Below, one piece after another: positions 13,357-17,523 of a stretch of DNA of 64,000 nucleotides. Below the pieces are notes generated by a model, which saw nothing but the letters and a program-made list of their open reading frames with translations, was not told where the DNA came from and made no database searches. Position 1 is the first letter of the stretch; each line of letters opens with the position of its first letter. A program made the translations under genes and the position numbers. The stretch comes from Candidatus Nanopelagicales bacterium (GTDB lineage Bacteria > Actinomycetota > Actinomycetes > S36-B12 > GCA-2699445), in the NCBI GenBank assembly GCA_030700225.1, contig JAUYJT010000030.1, positions 453 through 64,452 of the forward strand. The letters run 5' to 3'.

Positions 13357-13492
13357 CAGGACCACTCCCTTCTCAAGCAGCGCCTCCGAGCGACGGTCCC
13401 CCCGGACTGCTGCGTTGAATCAGCGTGTTACGTGATGGTACAAAGCCGGTCCGACAGCGGTTCGCACGGCATGCCCAACGGGTCGCGGGCAC

Positions 13493-13531
13493 GCCTTCCG
13501 CACCTTCCGCGCCTTCCGCGCCTTCCGCGCC
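13493..13531. repeat. 9-bp tandem repeat (GCCTTCCGC x4)
   Basis: Read directly; abuts the 111-bp palindromic element. Confidence 0.8.
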
Positions 13532-13641
13532 GCGGAAACGGCCGTTCCGAACAAACGCGACCGTTCGGGTACAGAAACGGGCGTTGCAACGGGCGCGTCC
13601 TTGCGTAACGGGTGCGTCTGTGCGGAACGGCCGTTTCTGCG
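13531..13641. repeat. 111-bp palindromic REP/MITE-like element, copy 1
   Basis: 35-bp imperfect terminal inverted arms (CGCGGAAACGGCCGTTCCG... / ...CGGAACGGCCGTTTCTGCG). Homologous to 15644-15754. Confidence 0.85.
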
Positions 13642-13710
13642 CGCGGGGCGTGCGCGCCGGGCGTCAGCGCCGTGGACGCCTAAACCCCGACCTCCTGAGG
13701 CACGTGGCCC

Positions 13711-14109
13711 TCATTGATGAAGATGCAGTTCCACTGGGGCGTCCGGGTACGCCTCAGCCAACCTCTGGTCCGAGGTGAGGAACGTCATTCTCCGCGTTCT
13801 GGACTGGGCGATCAGCATCCTGTCGAACGGGTCCTTGTGCGCACCCAGCTCGAGGCTGGAAACCTCGATGGCGTCGTCGGGGGTGATGTCCATGGGTCGA
13901 TAGTCCTTGGCCACCAGCTCTCCCCGCAGCACACGGGCGTCCACGTCCAGCTTGCCTAGGCGGTTCTTGACGACAATCTCCCAGATACTGGCGGCGCTGA
14001 ACCACAGTTCGTTCTCCGGGTTGAGCACCATCTGCCTTACGGCGATGGGCAACCTGGGGGAGTCGTCGGACACCCATAGAAGCAGGTGAGTGTCCAGCAG
14101 GTACCTCAC
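13711..14109 (-). CDS. vapC: VapC PIN-domain toxin
   Basis: YLLDTHLLLW, S..SIWE and HKDPFDRMLIAQ, LTSD. Confidence 0.92.
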   Translation of the reverse strand: MRYLLDTHLLLWVSDDSPRLPIAVRQMVLNPENELWFSAASIWEIVVKNRLGKLDVDARVLRGELVAKDYRPMDITPDDAIEVSSLELGAHKDPFDRMLIAQSRTRRMTFLTSDQRLAEAYPDAPVELHLHQ

Positions 14110-14366
14110 GTGGACTCCCCGAACATCTCCGCGACCTCGGGGTCCCCCAGATGCATGAGCTCCTCGGCGTCTTCCGGGTACTTCAACTTGCCCTTCATGA
14201 ACCCAATTCGGTAGGAGGCGGTTCGTTGCTCCTCGGCGTCAAGGGGGACGATCTTGACAAGTGGACGCCCCGACTTCGCGATGATGAACGGCTCTCCGAA
14301 CTCGATGGCACGAGCGATCAACTGGGAGAGATGGGTCTTCGCGTCGTGCATGTTGACGATCTGCAC
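14106..14366 (-). CDS. Phd/YefM family antitoxin
   Basis: VNMHDAKTHLSQLI...GEPFIIAKSGRPLVKIVP; GTGA overlap with vapC. Confidence 0.9.
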   Translation of the reverse strand: MQIVNMHDAKTHLSQLIARAIEFGEPFIIAKSGRPLVKIVPLDAEEQRTASYRIGFMKGKLKYPEDAEELMHLGDPEVAEMFGEST

Positions 14367-14380
14367 TGATCCTCCATGAC

Positions 14381-14408
14381 TAAACTAAGTGCTACCGGGC
14401 TTAGTTTA
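14381..14408. promoter_or_regulatory. operator palindrome of the phd-vapC operon
   Basis: TAAACTAAG-N10-CTTAGTTTA, a perfect 9-bp inverted repeat just upstream of the antitoxin. Confidence 0.7.
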
Positions 14409-14529
14409 CGCCTCCAAATGGCGTGGAGTACAGGTCGCGATGGACGCCACCTAGGACGCCATCGGGTTACCAGGCGATCGTCTCCAGCTTGAGGAGCGTC
14501 CCATTGGAATGCTCGTTGCGCGCTTGGCA

Positions 14530-14826
14530 CTATGCGGCGACGAACTCCGCGGACACGCTCTCGGTGCGCCAGCCATCCTCCAGGCCCGCCACCACAGCCG
14601 TGCGCACCAGTTCATCCGCTCGCGAAACGGCAGCCTGTGGGGATGCGGACTCCAGGGTCAGGTCAACCTCTAGCAGTCCCTCGCTCAAGGTCGACCCGAT
14701 CGGCCAATCAAGCAGGTCGTCGCGAACTGCCTCCAGCGCGGCCATGTGGTCCATCACTGCCGTGACGGCATCGTCGGTGAGCCCCTGCGCGCCTTGGACT
14801 CTGACGTGAGTGTGGGTGGCGATCAT
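14530..14826 (-). CDS. small acidic hypothetical protein (98 aa)
   Basis: Strong AAGGAGG RBS before the ATG; no family recognised. Confidence 0.6.
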   Translation of the reverse strand: MIATHTHVRVQGAQGLTDDAVTAVMDHMAALEAVRDDLLDWPIGSTLSEGLLEVDLTLESASPQAAVSRADELVRTAVVAGLEDGWRTESVSAEFVAA

Positions 14827-14917
14827 CGGCCAACCTCCTTCTCCCCCGCTCGTTGGGAGTCCCCCAGCATGGCTGCCGCTGGAACCAGCGCGTCACATTC
14901 AACAGTGTGCCTGACCG

Positions 14918-15322
14918 TCACCCCCGCAAGACCTCAACGCGATCGTCGATGCGGCGCCAGCGCTTGTCCGCCGTGTGGATCGAGTGGGCGCCGATCGCTC
15001 GGGCAGTGGCGATGACGAGTGCGTCTGGCAGGCGGATTGAGCTGTGTCGTGCTCGGATCGCCGCGGCCTCTCGCGCGATGACCCGGTCGAGAGGAACGAT
15101 CGAATCGACCAGCAGGTCCACGAACCGCTCCACCCGGTCCATCTCGGCCTGGCCGATTCGGGCAGCGCCGACCAGGGTCTCGGCGACCGCGCTGGCGGGA
15201 CTGTGGACCTGGGCCGCATCTCGTCTCAACTCATCCAGGAGTTGAAGCGCAGCGGCGTGGTGGCTGTCCTGGGGGTCGAGCAGTCCGAGGATCACACTCG
15301 TGTCGAGAACTACCGGTCCCAT
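14918..15322 (-). CDS. vapC: VapC PIN-domain toxin
   Basis: VVLDTSVILG, E.LVG, LPDALVIATA and HTAD..W. Confidence 0.88.
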   Translation of the reverse strand: MGPVVLDTSVILGLLDPQDSHHAAALQLLDELRRDAAQVHSPASAVAETLVGAARIGQAEMDRVERFVDLLVDSIVPLDRVIAREAAAIRARHSSIRLPDALVIATARAIGAHSIHTADKRWRRIDDRVEVLRG

Positions 15323-15582
15323 TCGTCACGCAACTCGTCCAGGCCCGTCGCGGCGGACAACCCGGGGAACTTGCCCAGGAACGGCTCCAAAGGGTCCGCG
15401 GCCCTGACGAGCAGGATGCGGCCCTCTGCTTGCGCCTCGACAACCAGTTCGTCGCCTGTAGCGACGTGCGCGGCCGCCAGTGCGGCGACGGGCAAGGTGA
15501 TCTGGTTCTTGCTCGACACCCGGGTAGTCCGAATGCGCTTGGCTCCAGGCGCAGTCCGCGTGCGCTTTACTTTGTCTCCCAT
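15310..15582 (-). CDS. AbrB/MazE/SpoVT family antitoxin
   Basis: TTRVSSKNQITLP.......V..GDEL.V......ILL. Overlaps the downstream vapC. Start trimmed to ATG 15582. Confidence 0.8.
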   Translation of the reverse strand: MGDKVKRTRTAPGAKRIRTTRVSSKNQITLPVAALAAAHVATGDELVVEAQAEGRILLVRAADPLEPFLGKFPGLSAATGLDELRDEWDR

Positions 15583-15643
15583 ACTGTAAAGGCTACGTCG
15601 GGGCCCGAGTACTGGCAAGCCGGAGGCGGGGCACCCTGGCGGT

Positions 15644-15754
15644 CGCGGAAGCGGCCGTTCCGCACAAACGCGACAGTTGGGGTACAGACGCGCCCGTTGC
15701 AACGCCCGTTTCCTTCCGCAACGGGTGCGTCTGTCGAGAGCGGCCGCTTCTGCG
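15644..15754. repeat. 111-bp palindromic REP/MITE-like element, copy 2
   Basis: Same length and flanks as 13531-13641. Central 15688-15711 is the exact reverse complement of 13575-13598. Confidence 0.85.
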
Positions 15755-15890
15755 CGCGGCCGACCGGGGCTGGGGGCGGCGGCGCACCGAGAGGGCCGGG
15801 GCCGAAGGGCGGAACCGGGCGCCCGCTGGCCCGTGTAGCGTAGGCCACGGCATAATGCGATACCAGATCGAAACTGCGGTTAGGGTGCAG

Positions 15891-15942: not shown

Positions 15943-17523
15943 ATGTCGAGCAAGGTCCGGGTATTTCCGGAATCTGAGTCCCCTCACGTACCGGTGCCAC
16001 GTGACTCCCCGCTCGCTCAGCCGCTAGCTCAGCCGCTAGCTCAGCCGCTCTCGCGGCCGACGGAGAGCCCGGTCCCAGCCCAGGCCGACTCCCCCACGGC
16101 GAGCGCCCCGACTGCGGAGCCGGACCGGCAGAGCAACCCCGAACTCACACACCCCAGTGCCGTCCAGCGCAAGCGGACCCGGAAGTTGCTTATAGCGGAT
16201 CTCGCTGTCATATGGACGACTGTCGTTGTGCTGCTGCTCCTGTGGGAGCCGTTCCTGCAGATACCGACCGTCGGGTATCACCCTCAGACGTTCATCGCAA
16301 TCGCTCTGATCGTTCTGTGGCCGCTGACGTTGGCCAAGATGCGGGCCTACGCGTCCTGCATCCTCGGCCACGGGCCCGAGGAGTACCGCAGAGTTCTGAT
16401 CGCCAGCGCGATCACTACCGCCATCGTTGGCGCCAGTGCCTATCTCGCCGAGACGGCTGGGGGGCGCAAGTACTTCGGCGCGACGATGCTGCTCGGAACC
16501 TTGGCCCTGCTGGTCACGCGGCATCTCCTGCGCCGCTCGCTCCTGAGGTGGCTGTCTACCGGAGCCCCTCTGCAGCACGTGTTCATAGTCGCCGACGCAC
16601 AGGACAGCGATCGCATCTTCGACGAGATCGGCGACTCCGACGGGCGATTCGCCACAGTGGGCGGATGGAGTCCCGAGGGCTCGGACCTGGACCCCAAGCG
16701 CGTCGTGGAGGCGGCGATCGAGGCTGGCGCTGACAGCATCATCTACTCACCGTCAAGCCACCTGCCCGCGGGCTGGGTCAGGCGTCTCGGGTGGGCGATG
16801 GAAGACACGGAAATGGATCTGATGGTCAACCCATCGCTGATCGAGATCGCCGGTCCACGCTTGTCGATCGCACCCGTCGAGGGACTGCCGCTGCTACGGG
16901 TGGACATGCCGAAGTTCTCCAGACCGACGCGAACCATCAAGCGGGCCACGGACCTCGTGTGGGCCAGCCTTCTGCTCGCGATTCTCGGGATCCCGATGCT
17001 GATCATCGGCCTCGCCATCCGAATCGACAGCCGTGGGCCCGCGATCTTCAGGCAACAGCGCGCCGGACAGGGCGGTAAGACCTTCATCTGCTGGAAGTTC
17101 CGGACCATGGTCGATGGTGCGGACGCCAAGAGGGACGCGCTGCGCGCCGAATTCGGCGACGGCGGCGCGACGTTCAAGATGCGGGACGACCCGCGGGTCA
17201 CGCGGATCGGGAAGTGGCTACGCCATTTCTCGCTCGACGAGCTTCCTCAGCTGATCAACGTTCTGAGAGGTGACATGAGCCTGGTGGGCCCGCGCCCCCA
17301 CCACCTAGATGACCTGGCCCGCTACAGCGGCGATGCCCACCGGCGTCTGCTGATCAAGCCTGGACTTACAGGGCTATGGCAGGTCTCGGGACGCTCGGAC
17401 CTCGGCTGGGAAGAATCGCTGACGCTGGATCTGCACTACATCGAAACCTGGACCCTGTCGCTGGACCTGGTGATCATGATGCGGACCGCGAAGGTTGTCC
17501 TGCTTGGATCCGGGGCCTACTGA
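15943..17523 (+). CDS. polyprenyl glycosylphosphotransferase (WcaJ/CpsE-like priming sugar transferase)
   Basis: N-terminal TM helices; C-terminal KRATD, WKFRTM, DDPRVTRIGK.LR..SLDELPQL.NVL.GDMSLVGPRP and KPGLTGLWQVSGRS. Confidence 0.93.
   Translation: MSSKVRVFPESESPHVPVPRDSPLAQPLAQPLAQPLSRPTESPVPAQADSPTASAPTAEPDRQSNPELTHPSAVQRKRTRKLLIADLAVIWTTVVVLLLLWEPFLQIPTVGYHPQTFIAIALIVLWPLTLAKMRAYASCILGHGPEEYRRVLIASAITTAIVGASAYLAETAGGRKYFGATMLLGTLALLVTRHLLRRSLLRWLSTGAPLQHVFIVADAQDSDRIFDEIGDSDGRFATVGGWSPEGSDLDPKRVVEAAIEAGADSIIYSPSSHLPAGWVRRLGWAMEDTEMDLMVNPSLIEIAGPRLSIAPVEGLPLLRVDMPKFSRPTRTIKRATDLVWASLLLAILGIPMLIIGLAIRIDSRGPAIFRQQRAGQGGKTFICWKFRTMVDGADAKRDALRAEFGDGGATFKMRDDPRVTRIGKWLRHFSLDELPQLINVLRGDMSLVGPRPHHLDDLARYSGDAHRRLLIKPGLTGLWQVSGRSDLGWEESLTLDLHYIETWTLSLDLVIMMRTAKVVLLGSGAY

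What the first reader, a model, noticed from the sequence alone, without database searches (positions are those of the whole stretch)
13531..15754. Two 111-bp palindromic elements bracket a TA cassette, and their 24-bp core is exactly flipped
The copies are direct repeats of equal length, each with 35-bp imperfect inverted arms. The core AAACGGGCGTTGCAACGGGCGCGT (13575-13598) appears as its exact reverse complement at 15688-15711 between unchanged GGTACAG and CCTT flanks, centred on the palindrome CGTTGCAACG. One arm pair changes A-T to G-C in both arms, a compensatory change that implies selection on the hairpin. Between the copies lie only two VapC modules and one small gene. This may be a hairpin-based mobile or recombination system that captures TA cassettes and inverts its own core.
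Basis: partly seen in the sequence, partly recalled or inferred. Interest (0 to 1): 0.72.

Follow-up and report, generated by a model that had tools for sequence, protein, structure and literature searches.

The report
Palindromic repeat pair with flipped core
The two look-alike hairpin elements around the toxin-antitoxin genes are ordinary members of a roughly 65-copy "selfish" palindromic repeat family; the flipped 24-base centre is a rare, fixed copying accident rather than a switch, and the family's likely partner enzyme is a nuclease gene elsewhere in the genome that is itself framed by two copies.

Summary
Copies A (13531-13646) and B (15644-15759) are 84% identical direct repeats. A 26-nt core in A is the exact reverse complement of the core in B, between unchanged linkers.

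The interpretation mostly fails.
- The elements belong to a family of about 65 copies of roughly 103-116 nt. It is a nested palindrome scattered over every kind of intergenic space in this 2.6-Mb groundwater actinobacterial genome, and it is absent from other genera.
- Core polarity is fixed in 61 of 65 copies. Copy A is the only copy whose core opposes both its arms and its linkers.
- The flip is present in independent unitigs and, in part, in a sister genome about 93% identical across this locus, so it is old and fixed.
- PIN and Phd genes are not enriched near copies. Other close pairs bracket housekeeping genes.
- The "compensatory" arm change shows no covariation across the family.

The flip is best explained by templated mutation: a replication template switch or an antiparallel gene conversion within a quasi-palindrome.

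One suggested check came back positive. The only single gene framed by two inverted copies encodes an AbiEi-wHTH plus Vsr/DUF559-type nuclease. Its paralog is framed by a second repeat family, and homologs in related genera are framed by their own repeats. This is a REPIN/RAYT-like arrangement with a different enzyme.

The parts
13531..13646 (.). Copy A of the palindromic repeat family. Left arm 13531-13565, left linker 13566-13574 (CGGGTACAG), core 13575-13598, right linker 13599-13606, right arm 13607-13641.
   Evidence: nhmmer E 2e-26; DNA fold -47.1 kcal/mol, z -5.2
13575..13598 (.). Inverted 24-nt core of copy A, AAACGGGCGTT-GC-AACGGGCGCGT (half-sites Y-GC-rcX). It is the exact reverse complement of copy B's core and of the family consensus with the CCC variant.
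   Evidence: (26 nt, 100% complementary)
15644..15759 (.). Copy B, a consensus-type member. Core 15688-15711 is ACGCGCCCGTT-GC-AACGCCCGTTT (X-GC-rcY). It is 100% identical in the sister genome.
13711..14109 (-). VapC-type PIN toxin (132 aa). Bracketed by the copies, not part of the element.
   Evidence: PF01850, E 1.7e-11; named VapC in the sister MAG
14106..14366 (-). Phd/YefM antitoxin (86 aa), overlapping the PIN gene by 4 nt.
14530..14826 (-). 98-aa orphan ORF. It is conserved in the sister genome and matches no family.
14918..15322 (-). Second PIN toxin (134 aa).
   Evidence: PF01850, E 1.4e-20
15310..15582 (-). AbrB/MazE-type antitoxin (90 aa) of the second PIN toxin.
   Evidence: annotated as 90 aa in the sister contig
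13492..13527 (.). Four tandem 9-mers (CGCCTTCCG) that abut the left end of copy A.
   Evidence: family D3

Best explanation
Copies A and B are two non-autonomous members of a lineage-restricted, nested-palindromic intergenic repeat family. The host is an uncultured groundwater actinobacterium whose sister MAG is labelled Candidatus Nanopelagicales.

**Family and anatomy.** The family has at least 65 copies, each about 103-116 nt. Each copy is built as T1-M1>-M2>-GC-<M3-<M4-T2.
- T is a terminal palindrome, RCGGCCGY.
- M is a 15-mer, ACA[A/G]ACGCNCCCGTT.

**Most likely kind (inferred).** The family is a REPIN-like element. Its probable cognate enzyme is not a RAYT. It is a 312-aa protein with an AbiEi-type winged-helix domain and a Vsr/DUF559/I-Bth0305I-type PD-(D/E)xK nuclease domain, encoded at G000:C75:6244-7182. 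That gene is itself framed by two inverted copies.

**The TA genes are not cargo.** The two TA modules lie between two family members that happen to occupy the two neighbouring intergenic gaps. A and B are unusually similar to each other, which points to local duplication or local gene conversion.

**The flipped core.** It is a rare, fixed, templated mutation of the quasi-palindromic centre. The proposed route is that a nascent strand switched to the complementary strand, or to copy B aligned antiparallel, at the G before the core. It copied 24 nt and switched back at the C after the core. Only the four mismatched dinucleotides of the quasi-palindrome changed as a result. The sister strain later re-converted the left edge from copy B.

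**Shown:** family membership, fixed polarity, reality and age of the flip, lack of TA association, and the gene-repeat pairing.
**Inferred:** the template-switch route and the enzymatic role of the nuclease.
For: **Family.**
- nhmmer finds 65 loci in convergent (19), divergent (17) and tandem (23) gaps, with no sense bias.
- There are no copies in 30 relatives.
- The family's 18-mer gives only 6 scattered single hits in unrelated taxa among 185,579 species genomes and none in viral contigs.

**Polarity.**
- 61 of 62 GGGTACAG copies carry X immediately after the linker; only copy A carries Y-GC-rcX.
- A divergent subfamily of 3 copies (C39, C61, C47) has its linkers in the opposite sense to its core, so sub-segment flips recur.

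**Reality and age of the flip.**
- Unitigs of two runs cover the flip with no differences.
- In sister genome GCA_034523275.1, copy A reads ACGCGGGCGTTGCAACGGGCGCGT, so the inner GG flip is shared.
- In that sister copy the 4 differences between 13562 and 13577 are contiguous and all match B. Sister copy B is identical to ours.

**A and B are specifically related.**
- Identity over arms plus linkers is 0.874, the 98.5th percentile of all pairs.
- B's core is unique in the family, and A's core is its exact reverse complement.

**No TA link.**

**No covariation.**

**Mechanism in the literature.** Template switching between imperfect inverted repeats homogenises the arms and inverts the spacer (PMC8604942). 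It produces loop inversions and multi-base 'compensatory' changes in single events, including in bacteria (PMC8794818).

**Partner gene.**
- Weak Pfam matches to MTES_1575, AbiEi_4 and DUF559 are confirmed by the annotations of homologs.
- S203, E206, D237, E248, D250 and R269 are invariant in 30 homologs.
- The AF2 model has pLDDT 93.5. It matches AbiEi (6y8q), Rv2827c (1zel), I-Bth0305I (3r3p, target-normalised TM-score (TMt) 0.67) and Vsr.
- It is the only single gene framed by two family-1 copies, and the framing is conserved in the sister genome.
- Paralog C43:4429-5376 is framed by a second family of 19 loci.
- Homologs in G003, G006, G010 and G015 are framed by inverted repeats. In G003 and G015 these repeats are themselves dispersed.
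Against: - No empty site or insertion polymorphism was seen here.
- No target-site duplication was detected, and there is no autonomous parent with the same ends.
- The flip could have arisen in several patchy conversion steps rather than one. The sister allele is a possible intermediate. In addition, 9 copies already carry a palindromised right half.
- Switch points with only 1-2 nt of microhomology are unusual.
- Two direct 'sister' pairs, A/B and C63_3163/C63_12390, both frame TA-rich DNA. Pure coincidence does not explain this well (about p 0.03).
- An earlier scan-wide check of the nuclease-repeat claim in other genomes did not meet its preset co-occurrence test (note e1-2085905).
- Contigs cannot exclude a minor unflipped subpopulation.
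Confidence: 0.7

Rival explanations
1. Stepwise patch conversion rather than a single inversion. The right half of the core was first palindromised to rcX, as in 9 other copies. Short templated or slippage events then changed the left half: CC to GG, then CG to AA. The second step could be a direct copy of the 8-mer AACGGGCG from the right half. On this view the exact reverse-complement relation to copy B is a by-product of the limited half-site repertoire.
For: - 9 copies have AACGG[T/G]CGCGT as the right half.
- The sister allele ACGCGGGCGTT...GCGCGT is exactly such an intermediate.
- Copy A's core contains AACGGGCG twice at a 12-nt spacing.
- The CCC/GGG variant occurs in about 9 copies.
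Against: - It needs three events where a flip followed by one B-to-A conversion tract needs two.
- The B-like states in the sister copy at 13562, 13566, 13576 and 13577 are contiguous, as expected for one conversion tract.
- B's 24-mer is unique in the family, yet it is matched 24 of 24 in reverse complement.
Confidence: 0.2
2. The two copies act as a recombination or mobilisation pair for the TA cassette. This would resemble a composite, MITE-flanked unit or a dif-module-like cassette. The direct 'sister' copies would be the footprint of cassette insertion or of repeat-mediated exchange.
For: - A/B and the C63 pair are the two most similar neighbouring pairs (98.5th and 99.3rd percentiles).
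- Both pairs are direct, and both frame TA modules: 2 modules in 2 kb, and 4 modules in 9 kb.
- The similarity stops at the element ends.
- The C63 island is rearranged in the sister strain.
- MITE pairs that mobilise cargo are known in Acinetobacter (PMC6382973 and references in it).
Against: - There is no duplication flanking the composite unit.
- TA genes are not enriched near copies genome-wide.
- Neighbouring pairs in general are not more alike than random pairs (permutation p 0.95).
- Other pairs frame housekeeping genes.
- The cassette and both copies are stable between strains about 7% apart.
Confidence: 0.1
3. A programmed, enzyme-driven invertible core: a phase switch, or a hairpin recombination site that flips itself.
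For: - The inversion is exact, with clean boundaries.
- 'DUF559 domain-containing protein' is enriched among predicted programmed-inversion targets (PMC9881135, table, odds ratio 14.3).
Against: - 61 of 65 copies have one polarity.
- Only 1 nt of inverted repeat (G...C) flanks the segment.
- No recombinase is encoded nearby.
- The flipped state is the only one in the unitigs of two samples, at depth about 90-150.
- The flip pre-dates a strain split of about 7% divergence.
Confidence: 0.04

Closest known systems
REPIN / REP doublets with their RAYT transposase ('REPtron'; PMC3116915, PMC3337134)
   Same: - Short, multi-copy, extragenic, hairpin-forming doublets of inverted units.
- Lineage-restricted and vertically inherited.
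- No target duplication was detected here, which does not conflict with REP-type elements.
- A low-copy enzyme gene is framed by two inverted copies.
- Different paralogs pair with different repeat families in one genome.
   Different: - No RAYT is present. The only Y1_Tnp match is a decayed IS605 tnpA.
- The framed gene encodes an AbiEi-wHTH plus Vsr/DUF559-type PD-(D/E)xK nuclease.
- The element is a nested four-module palindrome rather than two simple REP hairpins.
- No GTAG tag is present.
Template-switch mutations in quasi-palindromes: arm homogenisation and spacer or loop inversion (PMC8604942, PMC8794818)
   Same: - An in-place inversion confined to the mismatched positions of an imperfect palindrome.
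- Multi-nucleotide changes arising in one event.
- Palindromised variants in sibling copies.
   Different: - The inverted segment is the whole 24-nt quasi-palindrome and is flanked by only 1-2 nt of symmetry. It is not a loop between well-paired stems.
- The event sits inside a repeat family in which other copies, notably B, could serve as the template.
Bacterial MITEs (Correia, ERIC, RUP, MITEAba12; PMC6382973)
   Same: - About 100 nt long, with terminal inverted arms.
- Intergenic, in dozens of copies and in either orientation.
- Pairs can frame genes.
   Different: - No target-site duplication was detected.
- No parent IS with matching ends exists, and there are no solitary arms.
- No DDE transposase has been linked to the family.
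I-Bth0305I / Vsr-like homing endonucleases (PDB 3r3p; PMC3424549)
   Same: The catalytic domain of the framed gene has this fold (TMt 0.67) and conserves the acidic residues. This suggests a cut-and-repair, homing-like way of copying.
   Different: The gene is neither in an intron nor in a phage. It is fused to an AbiEi-type DNA-binding module. Its presumed targets are dispersed palindromes. No activity has been tested.

Membership tests
REPIN/REP-RAYT system | Multi-copy extragenic palindromic units arranged as inverted doublets | tested here: met
   65 loci, all intergenic. The arms are 35 nt and the modules are nested and inverted.
REPIN/REP-RAYT system | Cognate RAYT (Y1 HUH transposase, PF01797) gene flanked by the repeats | tested here: not met
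   The only PF01797 match in the genome is a truncated IS605 tnpA beside a frameshifted tnpB, with no family copy nearby. The assembly is 95.7% complete.
REPIN/REP-RAYT system | Conserved GTAG or CGTC tetranucleotide at the 5' end of the REP stem (PMC3733652) | tested here: inconclusive
   There is no GTAG; the linker reads GTAC. CGTC occurs inside the reverse complement of module M2 (GCGCGTCTGT), but not at a stem end.
IS-derived MITE | Terminal inverted repeats matching a resident IS, plus target-site duplication | tested here: not met
   No arm hits fall outside the known copies. No consistent flanking direct repeat was found for k = 2-8.
Site-specific invertible DNA switch | Inverted repeats bounding the segment, an adjacent recombinase, and both orientations in the population | tested here: not met
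   The bounding symmetry is 1 nt. No recombinase lies among the neighbouring genes. Only one orientation appears in the unitigs of 2 runs; raw reads were not available.
Xer/dif-module-like cassette | 28-nt site of 11-6-11 architecture in alternating orientation around modules | tested here: not met
   The core is 11-2-11. 65 chromosomal copies coexist with conserved synteny between strains.
AbiEi_4 + DUF559/MTES_1575 nuclease family (the framed gene) | N-terminal AbiEi-type wHTH and C-terminal Vsr-like PD-(D/E)xK domain with conserved acidic residues | tested here: met
   The query's own Pfam hits are below threshold, but homologs carry PF13338, PF18741 and PF04480. E206, D237, E248 and D250 are invariant. 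Fold matches are 6y8q, 1zel, 3r3p and 1vsr.
Type II VapBC toxin-antitoxin modules (the bracketed genes) | Small antitoxin gene overlapping a downstream PIN toxin gene | tested here: met
   PF01850 is found twice, with PF02604 and PF04014/AbrB upstream. The overlaps are 4 nt and 13 nt.

The most novel reading that the evidence does not exclude
The AbiEi-wHTH/Vsr-like nuclease may be the cognate enzyme of this palindrome family, and its paralog the enzyme of family 2. On this reading:
- The nuclease cuts in or near the core.
- Break repair is templated by other copies. It can proceed in either alignment because the element is palindromic.
- This repair spreads and homogenises copies, makes local sister pairs such as A/B, and occasionally flips modules, as in copy A and in the C39-type subfamily.

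This would be a second, RAYT-independent class of REPIN-like intragenomic replicators in Actinobacteria. Copy A would be a natural footprint of its repair mechanism.
Probability: 0.3. Interest if true: 0.7.

Novelty: new variant of a known kind. Interest (0 to 1): 0.4.

Why it matters
The flagged feature is not a cassette-capturing or self-inverting system, so the exciting reading should be dropped.

Two things remain of value.

1. **A clean natural example of an in-place inversion.** A 24-nt quasi-palindrome is inverted. A sister-strain allele dates the event and shows partial re-conversion. This is useful for people who study template-switch mutagenesis and concerted evolution of repeats.

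2. **An independent, internally replicated case of enzyme-repeat pairing.** In one genome, two paralogs pair with two different repeat families. The framing is conserved in a sister genome and recurs in related genera. AbiEi/DUF559-type nuclease genes are therefore framed by the dispersed palindromes of their own genome. If these nucleases are the enzymes behind such repeats, that would explain a very large set of 'DUF559 hypothetical proteins' in Actinobacteria. It would also add a second enzymology to the REPIN/RAYT paradigm.

Tried and rejected
- **Rfam on the locus.** It gave only sub-threshold miRNA-precursor hits, which are artefacts of the hairpin.
- **RAYT or other Y1 transposase.** Only a decayed IS605 was found.
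- **Autonomous parent with the same ends.** None was found.
- **Target-site duplication.** None was found.
- **Hairpin covariation.** None was found, so the element is not a structured-RNA gene under pairing selection. It also shows no bias relative to gene direction.
- **Promoter and terminator scan.** Nothing lies on the elements.
- **Empty-site test in relatives.** fadA-fadB is conserved, but its upstream neighbourhood is not syntenic in 90 loci.
- **Insertion polymorphism with the sister strain.** All three copies on C75 are present. The C63 island is rearranged, but not in a way that implicates the repeats.
- **Mixed core orientation.** Only Logan contigs were available. The joints seen at 13559-15681 and similar places are cross-alignments of other family copies.
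- **RNA runs.** None was listed.
- **Phage origin.** The 18-mer is absent from viral contigs.
- **TA enrichment near copies.** None was found.
- **DUF559 relic on C11.** The segment between two family-2 copies on C11 is not a DUF559 relic.
- **attC and dif-like readings.** Both were rejected on site architecture.
- **Searching the whole sister assembly through its locus handle.** The record is not held.
Full report
**1.

The repeat finder reports a direct repeat of 116 nt, 13531-13646 and 15644-15759, at 84% identity. Each copy has long inverted arms: 35 nt at 86% complementarity in copy A, and 39 nt at 74% in copy B.

A 26-nt stretch, 13574-13599, is 100% complementary to 15687-15712. In the four-way alignment the linkers GGGTACAG and CCTT stay in direct register while the 24 nt between them are reverse-complemented. 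The eight differing positions are exactly the four mismatched dinucleotides of the quasi-palindromic core. The change is therefore templated, not random.

Both strands of both copies fold far better than shuffles as single-stranded DNA (-47 and -44 kcal/mol for the plus strands; z from -3.1 to -5.2).

Five minus-strand genes lie between the copies:
- PIN toxin and Phd/YefM antitoxin
- a 98-aa orphan
- PIN toxin and AbrB/MazE-type antitoxin

To the left is the fadA-fadB operon. To the right is a Bac_transf sugar transferase.

**2. The two elements are members of a large dispersed family**

The window lies in a 2.6-Mb assembly of 85 contigs with 64.8% G+C. Iterated nhmmer finds 65 loci. Several sit at contig ends, so the true number is higher.

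With a rough gene caller, the copies lie in convergent (19), divergent (17) and tandem (23) intergenic gaps. Their orientation shows no bias relative to transcription.

The family is lineage-restricted:
- It is absent from 30 relatives of the same family and order.
- Its most conserved 18-mer gives only 6 scattered single hits in unrelated taxa among 185,579 species genomes.
- That 18-mer has no match in viral contigs.

**3. Anatomy**

The 53-copy alignment (A2) and the folds show a nested design.
- A terminal palindrome RCGGCCGY sits at each end.
- Four copies of a 15-mer, ACA[A/G]ACGCNCCCGTT, follow: two forward (M1, M2) and two reversed (M3, M4).
- These surround a central CGTT-NN-AACG, whose two middle bases are the most variable positions.

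The core is the 11-2-11 unit X-GC-rcY, where X is ACGCGCCCGTT and rcY is AACGnnnGTTT.

Pairing potential is high (81% of cells) but comes entirely from the consensus.
- The covariation score equals the shuffled expectation: 0.110 against 0.114, with 359 of 500 shuffles at least as high.

The change therefore gives no evidence of selection on the hairpin.

**4. Core polarity census**

Of the 62 copies carrying the GGGTACAG linker, 61 have X immediately after it. The right half is rcY in about 50 copies. In 9 copies, counting copy A, it is a palindromised rcX (AACGG[T/G]CGCGT).

Only copy A reads Y-GC-rcX. Copy B is consensus-type. Its 24-mer is unique in the family, and copy A matches it 24 of 24 in reverse complement.

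A divergent three-copy subfamily (C39, C61, C47) has the CAG/CCTT linker motifs in the opposite sense to its core and arms. Flips of sub-segments have therefore happened more than once. They remain rare, and copy A is the only copy whose core opposes both its arms and its linkers.

**5. The flip is real, old and fixed**

A 2128-nt k=31 unitig found in two runs of a groundwater study covers 13546-15673 without a difference and contains the junctions.

A sister genome carries the same cassette on a 3.1-kb contig that is 93% identical. It is NCBI GCA_034523275.1, labelled Candidatus Nanopelagicales bacterium, and it is also seen in run X3.
- Its copy B is identical to ours over 176 nt.
- Its copy A reads ACGCGGGCGTTGCAACGGGCGCGT. 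The inner GG/GG flip and the right half are shared with ours, but the left outer dinucleotide is CG.
- The four differences between 13562 and 13577 are contiguous and all match B.

The simplest history has two steps. A full flip occurred before the strains split. One short B-to-A conversion tract then followed in the sister lineage. A stepwise route, with the sister allele as an intermediate, needs more events but cannot be excluded.

Copy A differs at 13 of 116 positions between the strains, against about 4% in the neighbouring genes. The copies evidently exchange patches.

**6. How the flip most likely arose**

Only G...C symmetry bounds the segment. No recombinase is nearby, and one orientation is fixed. 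A programmed switch is therefore unlikely.

Replication template switching in imperfect inverted repeats is documented to homogenise arms and to invert spacers or loops in single events, including in bacteria (PMC8604942, PMC8794818). The 9 palindromised copies are the expected 'arm homogenisation' products of the same process.

The template may have been the complementary strand of copy A itself, provided copy A was then B-like. It may instead have been copy B, 2.1 kb away, aligned antiparallel; its arms are 83% complementary to those of copy A.

**7. The TA cassette is not cargo**

- Only 3 of 22 PIN genes and 2 of 9 Phd genes lie within 3 kb of a copy. This equals the 13.6% of the genome that lies that close.
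- Other close pairs frame yebC-pdxT-pdxS, or a single gene.
- Neighbouring pairs are in general no more alike than random pairs.

A residue remains. A/B (identity 0.874 outside the core, 98.5th percentile) and C63_3163/C63_12390 (0.885, 99.3rd percentile) are both direct pairs, and both frame TA-rich DNA. The C63 pair encloses four TA modules in 9 kb. The similarity ends at the element borders. Local duplication into the next free gap of a variable region is the plain reading. A role as recombination substrates is kept as a minor rival.

**8. A candidate partner enzyme**

The only single gene framed on both sides by family copies is G000:C75:6244-7182 (312 aa). The two copies are inverted, with their left arms facing the gene.

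Evidence that the protein is an AbiEi-type wHTH fused to a Vsr/DUF559-type nuclease:
- Its own Pfam hits are sub-threshold: MTES_1575, AbiEi_4 and DUF559.
- Its homologs carry these domains.
- S203, E206, D237, E248, D250 and R269 are invariant in 30 homologs.
- A confident model (pLDDT 93.5) matches AbiEi (6y8q) and Rv2827c in the N-terminal part.
- The same model matches the I-Bth0305I homing-endonuclease domain (3r3p, TMt 0.67) and Vsr in the C-terminal part.

Evidence for gene-repeat pairing:
- The framing is conserved in the sister genome.
- The paralog at C43:4429-5376 is framed by inverted copies of a second palindromic family, about 80 nt long with 19 loci.
- Homologs of 37-42% identity in G003, G006 and G010 are framed by inverted repeats.
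- The repeat that frames the G003 gene is dispersed in G003 and G015. In G015 it also lies on both sides of that genome's homolog.
- That repeat shares the GCGACCGTTGCAACGGTCGC centre with our family.

This is the signature of REPIN-RAYT systems, but with a different enzyme. In print I found only a table row that lists DUF559 proteins as enriched among predicted inversion targets (PMC9881135), and the fold classification with Vsr (PMC3424549).

Caveat: an earlier scan-wide check of the same claim on other genomes did not meet its preset co-occurrence test. No activity has been shown.

**9. Verdict**

The cassette-capture and self-inversion reading is not supported. The element is a new, lineage-specific member of the palindromic-repeat world, with a probable non-RAYT partner. 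The flipped core is a neat but ordinary templated mutation. Interest is moderate, and it comes mainly from the enzyme-repeat pairing, which lies outside the flagged coordinates and repeats earlier leads.

Noticed in passing
G000:C43:4322-5513 (outside the window) and 17 other loci: A second dispersed palindromic family of about 80 nt (GTGATCTTGTYGCGAAA..GGCCAAATGTGGCC..GCGACAAGATCAC; 19 loci). Two inverted copies frame a 315-aa DUF559/MTES_1575 paralog. Other pairs frame an Lnt-like gene (C37) and an unknown 840-nt segment (C11).
   Followed up: partly
L119:3476-4657 (sister genome GCA_034523275.1, contig JAXMHY010000070.1): A third AbiEi/DUF559-like paralog (P0002, 48% identical), not found in G000, lies between a DUF4191 gene and glnA. 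It is flanked by 22-nt direct repeats, ATGCGGAATACACCCAGCAGAA, as if inserted as a cassette.
   Followed up: no
window 15599-15774: Copy B and its immediate flanks show no difference from the sister genome over 176 nt, while the neighbouring 100-nt windows differ at 3-10 positions. Copy A differs at 13 of 116 positions.
   Followed up: partly
L122 (sister contig), the region corresponding to window ~13630-13665: The sister genome has a tandem duplication of about 34 nt. It covers the right terminus of copy A plus the adjacent flank (GCCGCTTCTGCGCGCGGGGCGTGCGCGC...).
   Followed up: no
window 16009-16056: Three tandem 12-mers (CCGCTAGCTCAG) inside the 5' part of the sugar-transferase gene encode a PLAQ repeat. 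This 100-nt stretch is one of the most divergent against the sister genome (29 differences).
   Followed up: no
window 13492-13527: Four tandem 9-mers (CGCCTTCCG) abut copy A. A 97% match to this stretch occurs in relative G007 (C13:53375-53412).
   Followed up: no
G000:C42:16858-18500 (L099): A decayed IS605-type element: tnpA with an internal deletion and a frameshifted tnpB. It is unrelated to the repeat family.
   Followed up: partly
G000:C63:3163-12489 (L101): A 9-kb island with four TA modules (Phd + ParE-like, DUF433/HTH_66 + PIN_10, TacA + truncated partner, RHH + PIN). It is framed by two very similar direct copies of the family and is rearranged in the sister strain.
   Followed up: partly
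window 14530-14826: A 98-aa orphan ORF between the two TA modules. It is conserved and annotated in the sister MAG and matches nothing in Pfam or NCBIfam.
   Followed up: no
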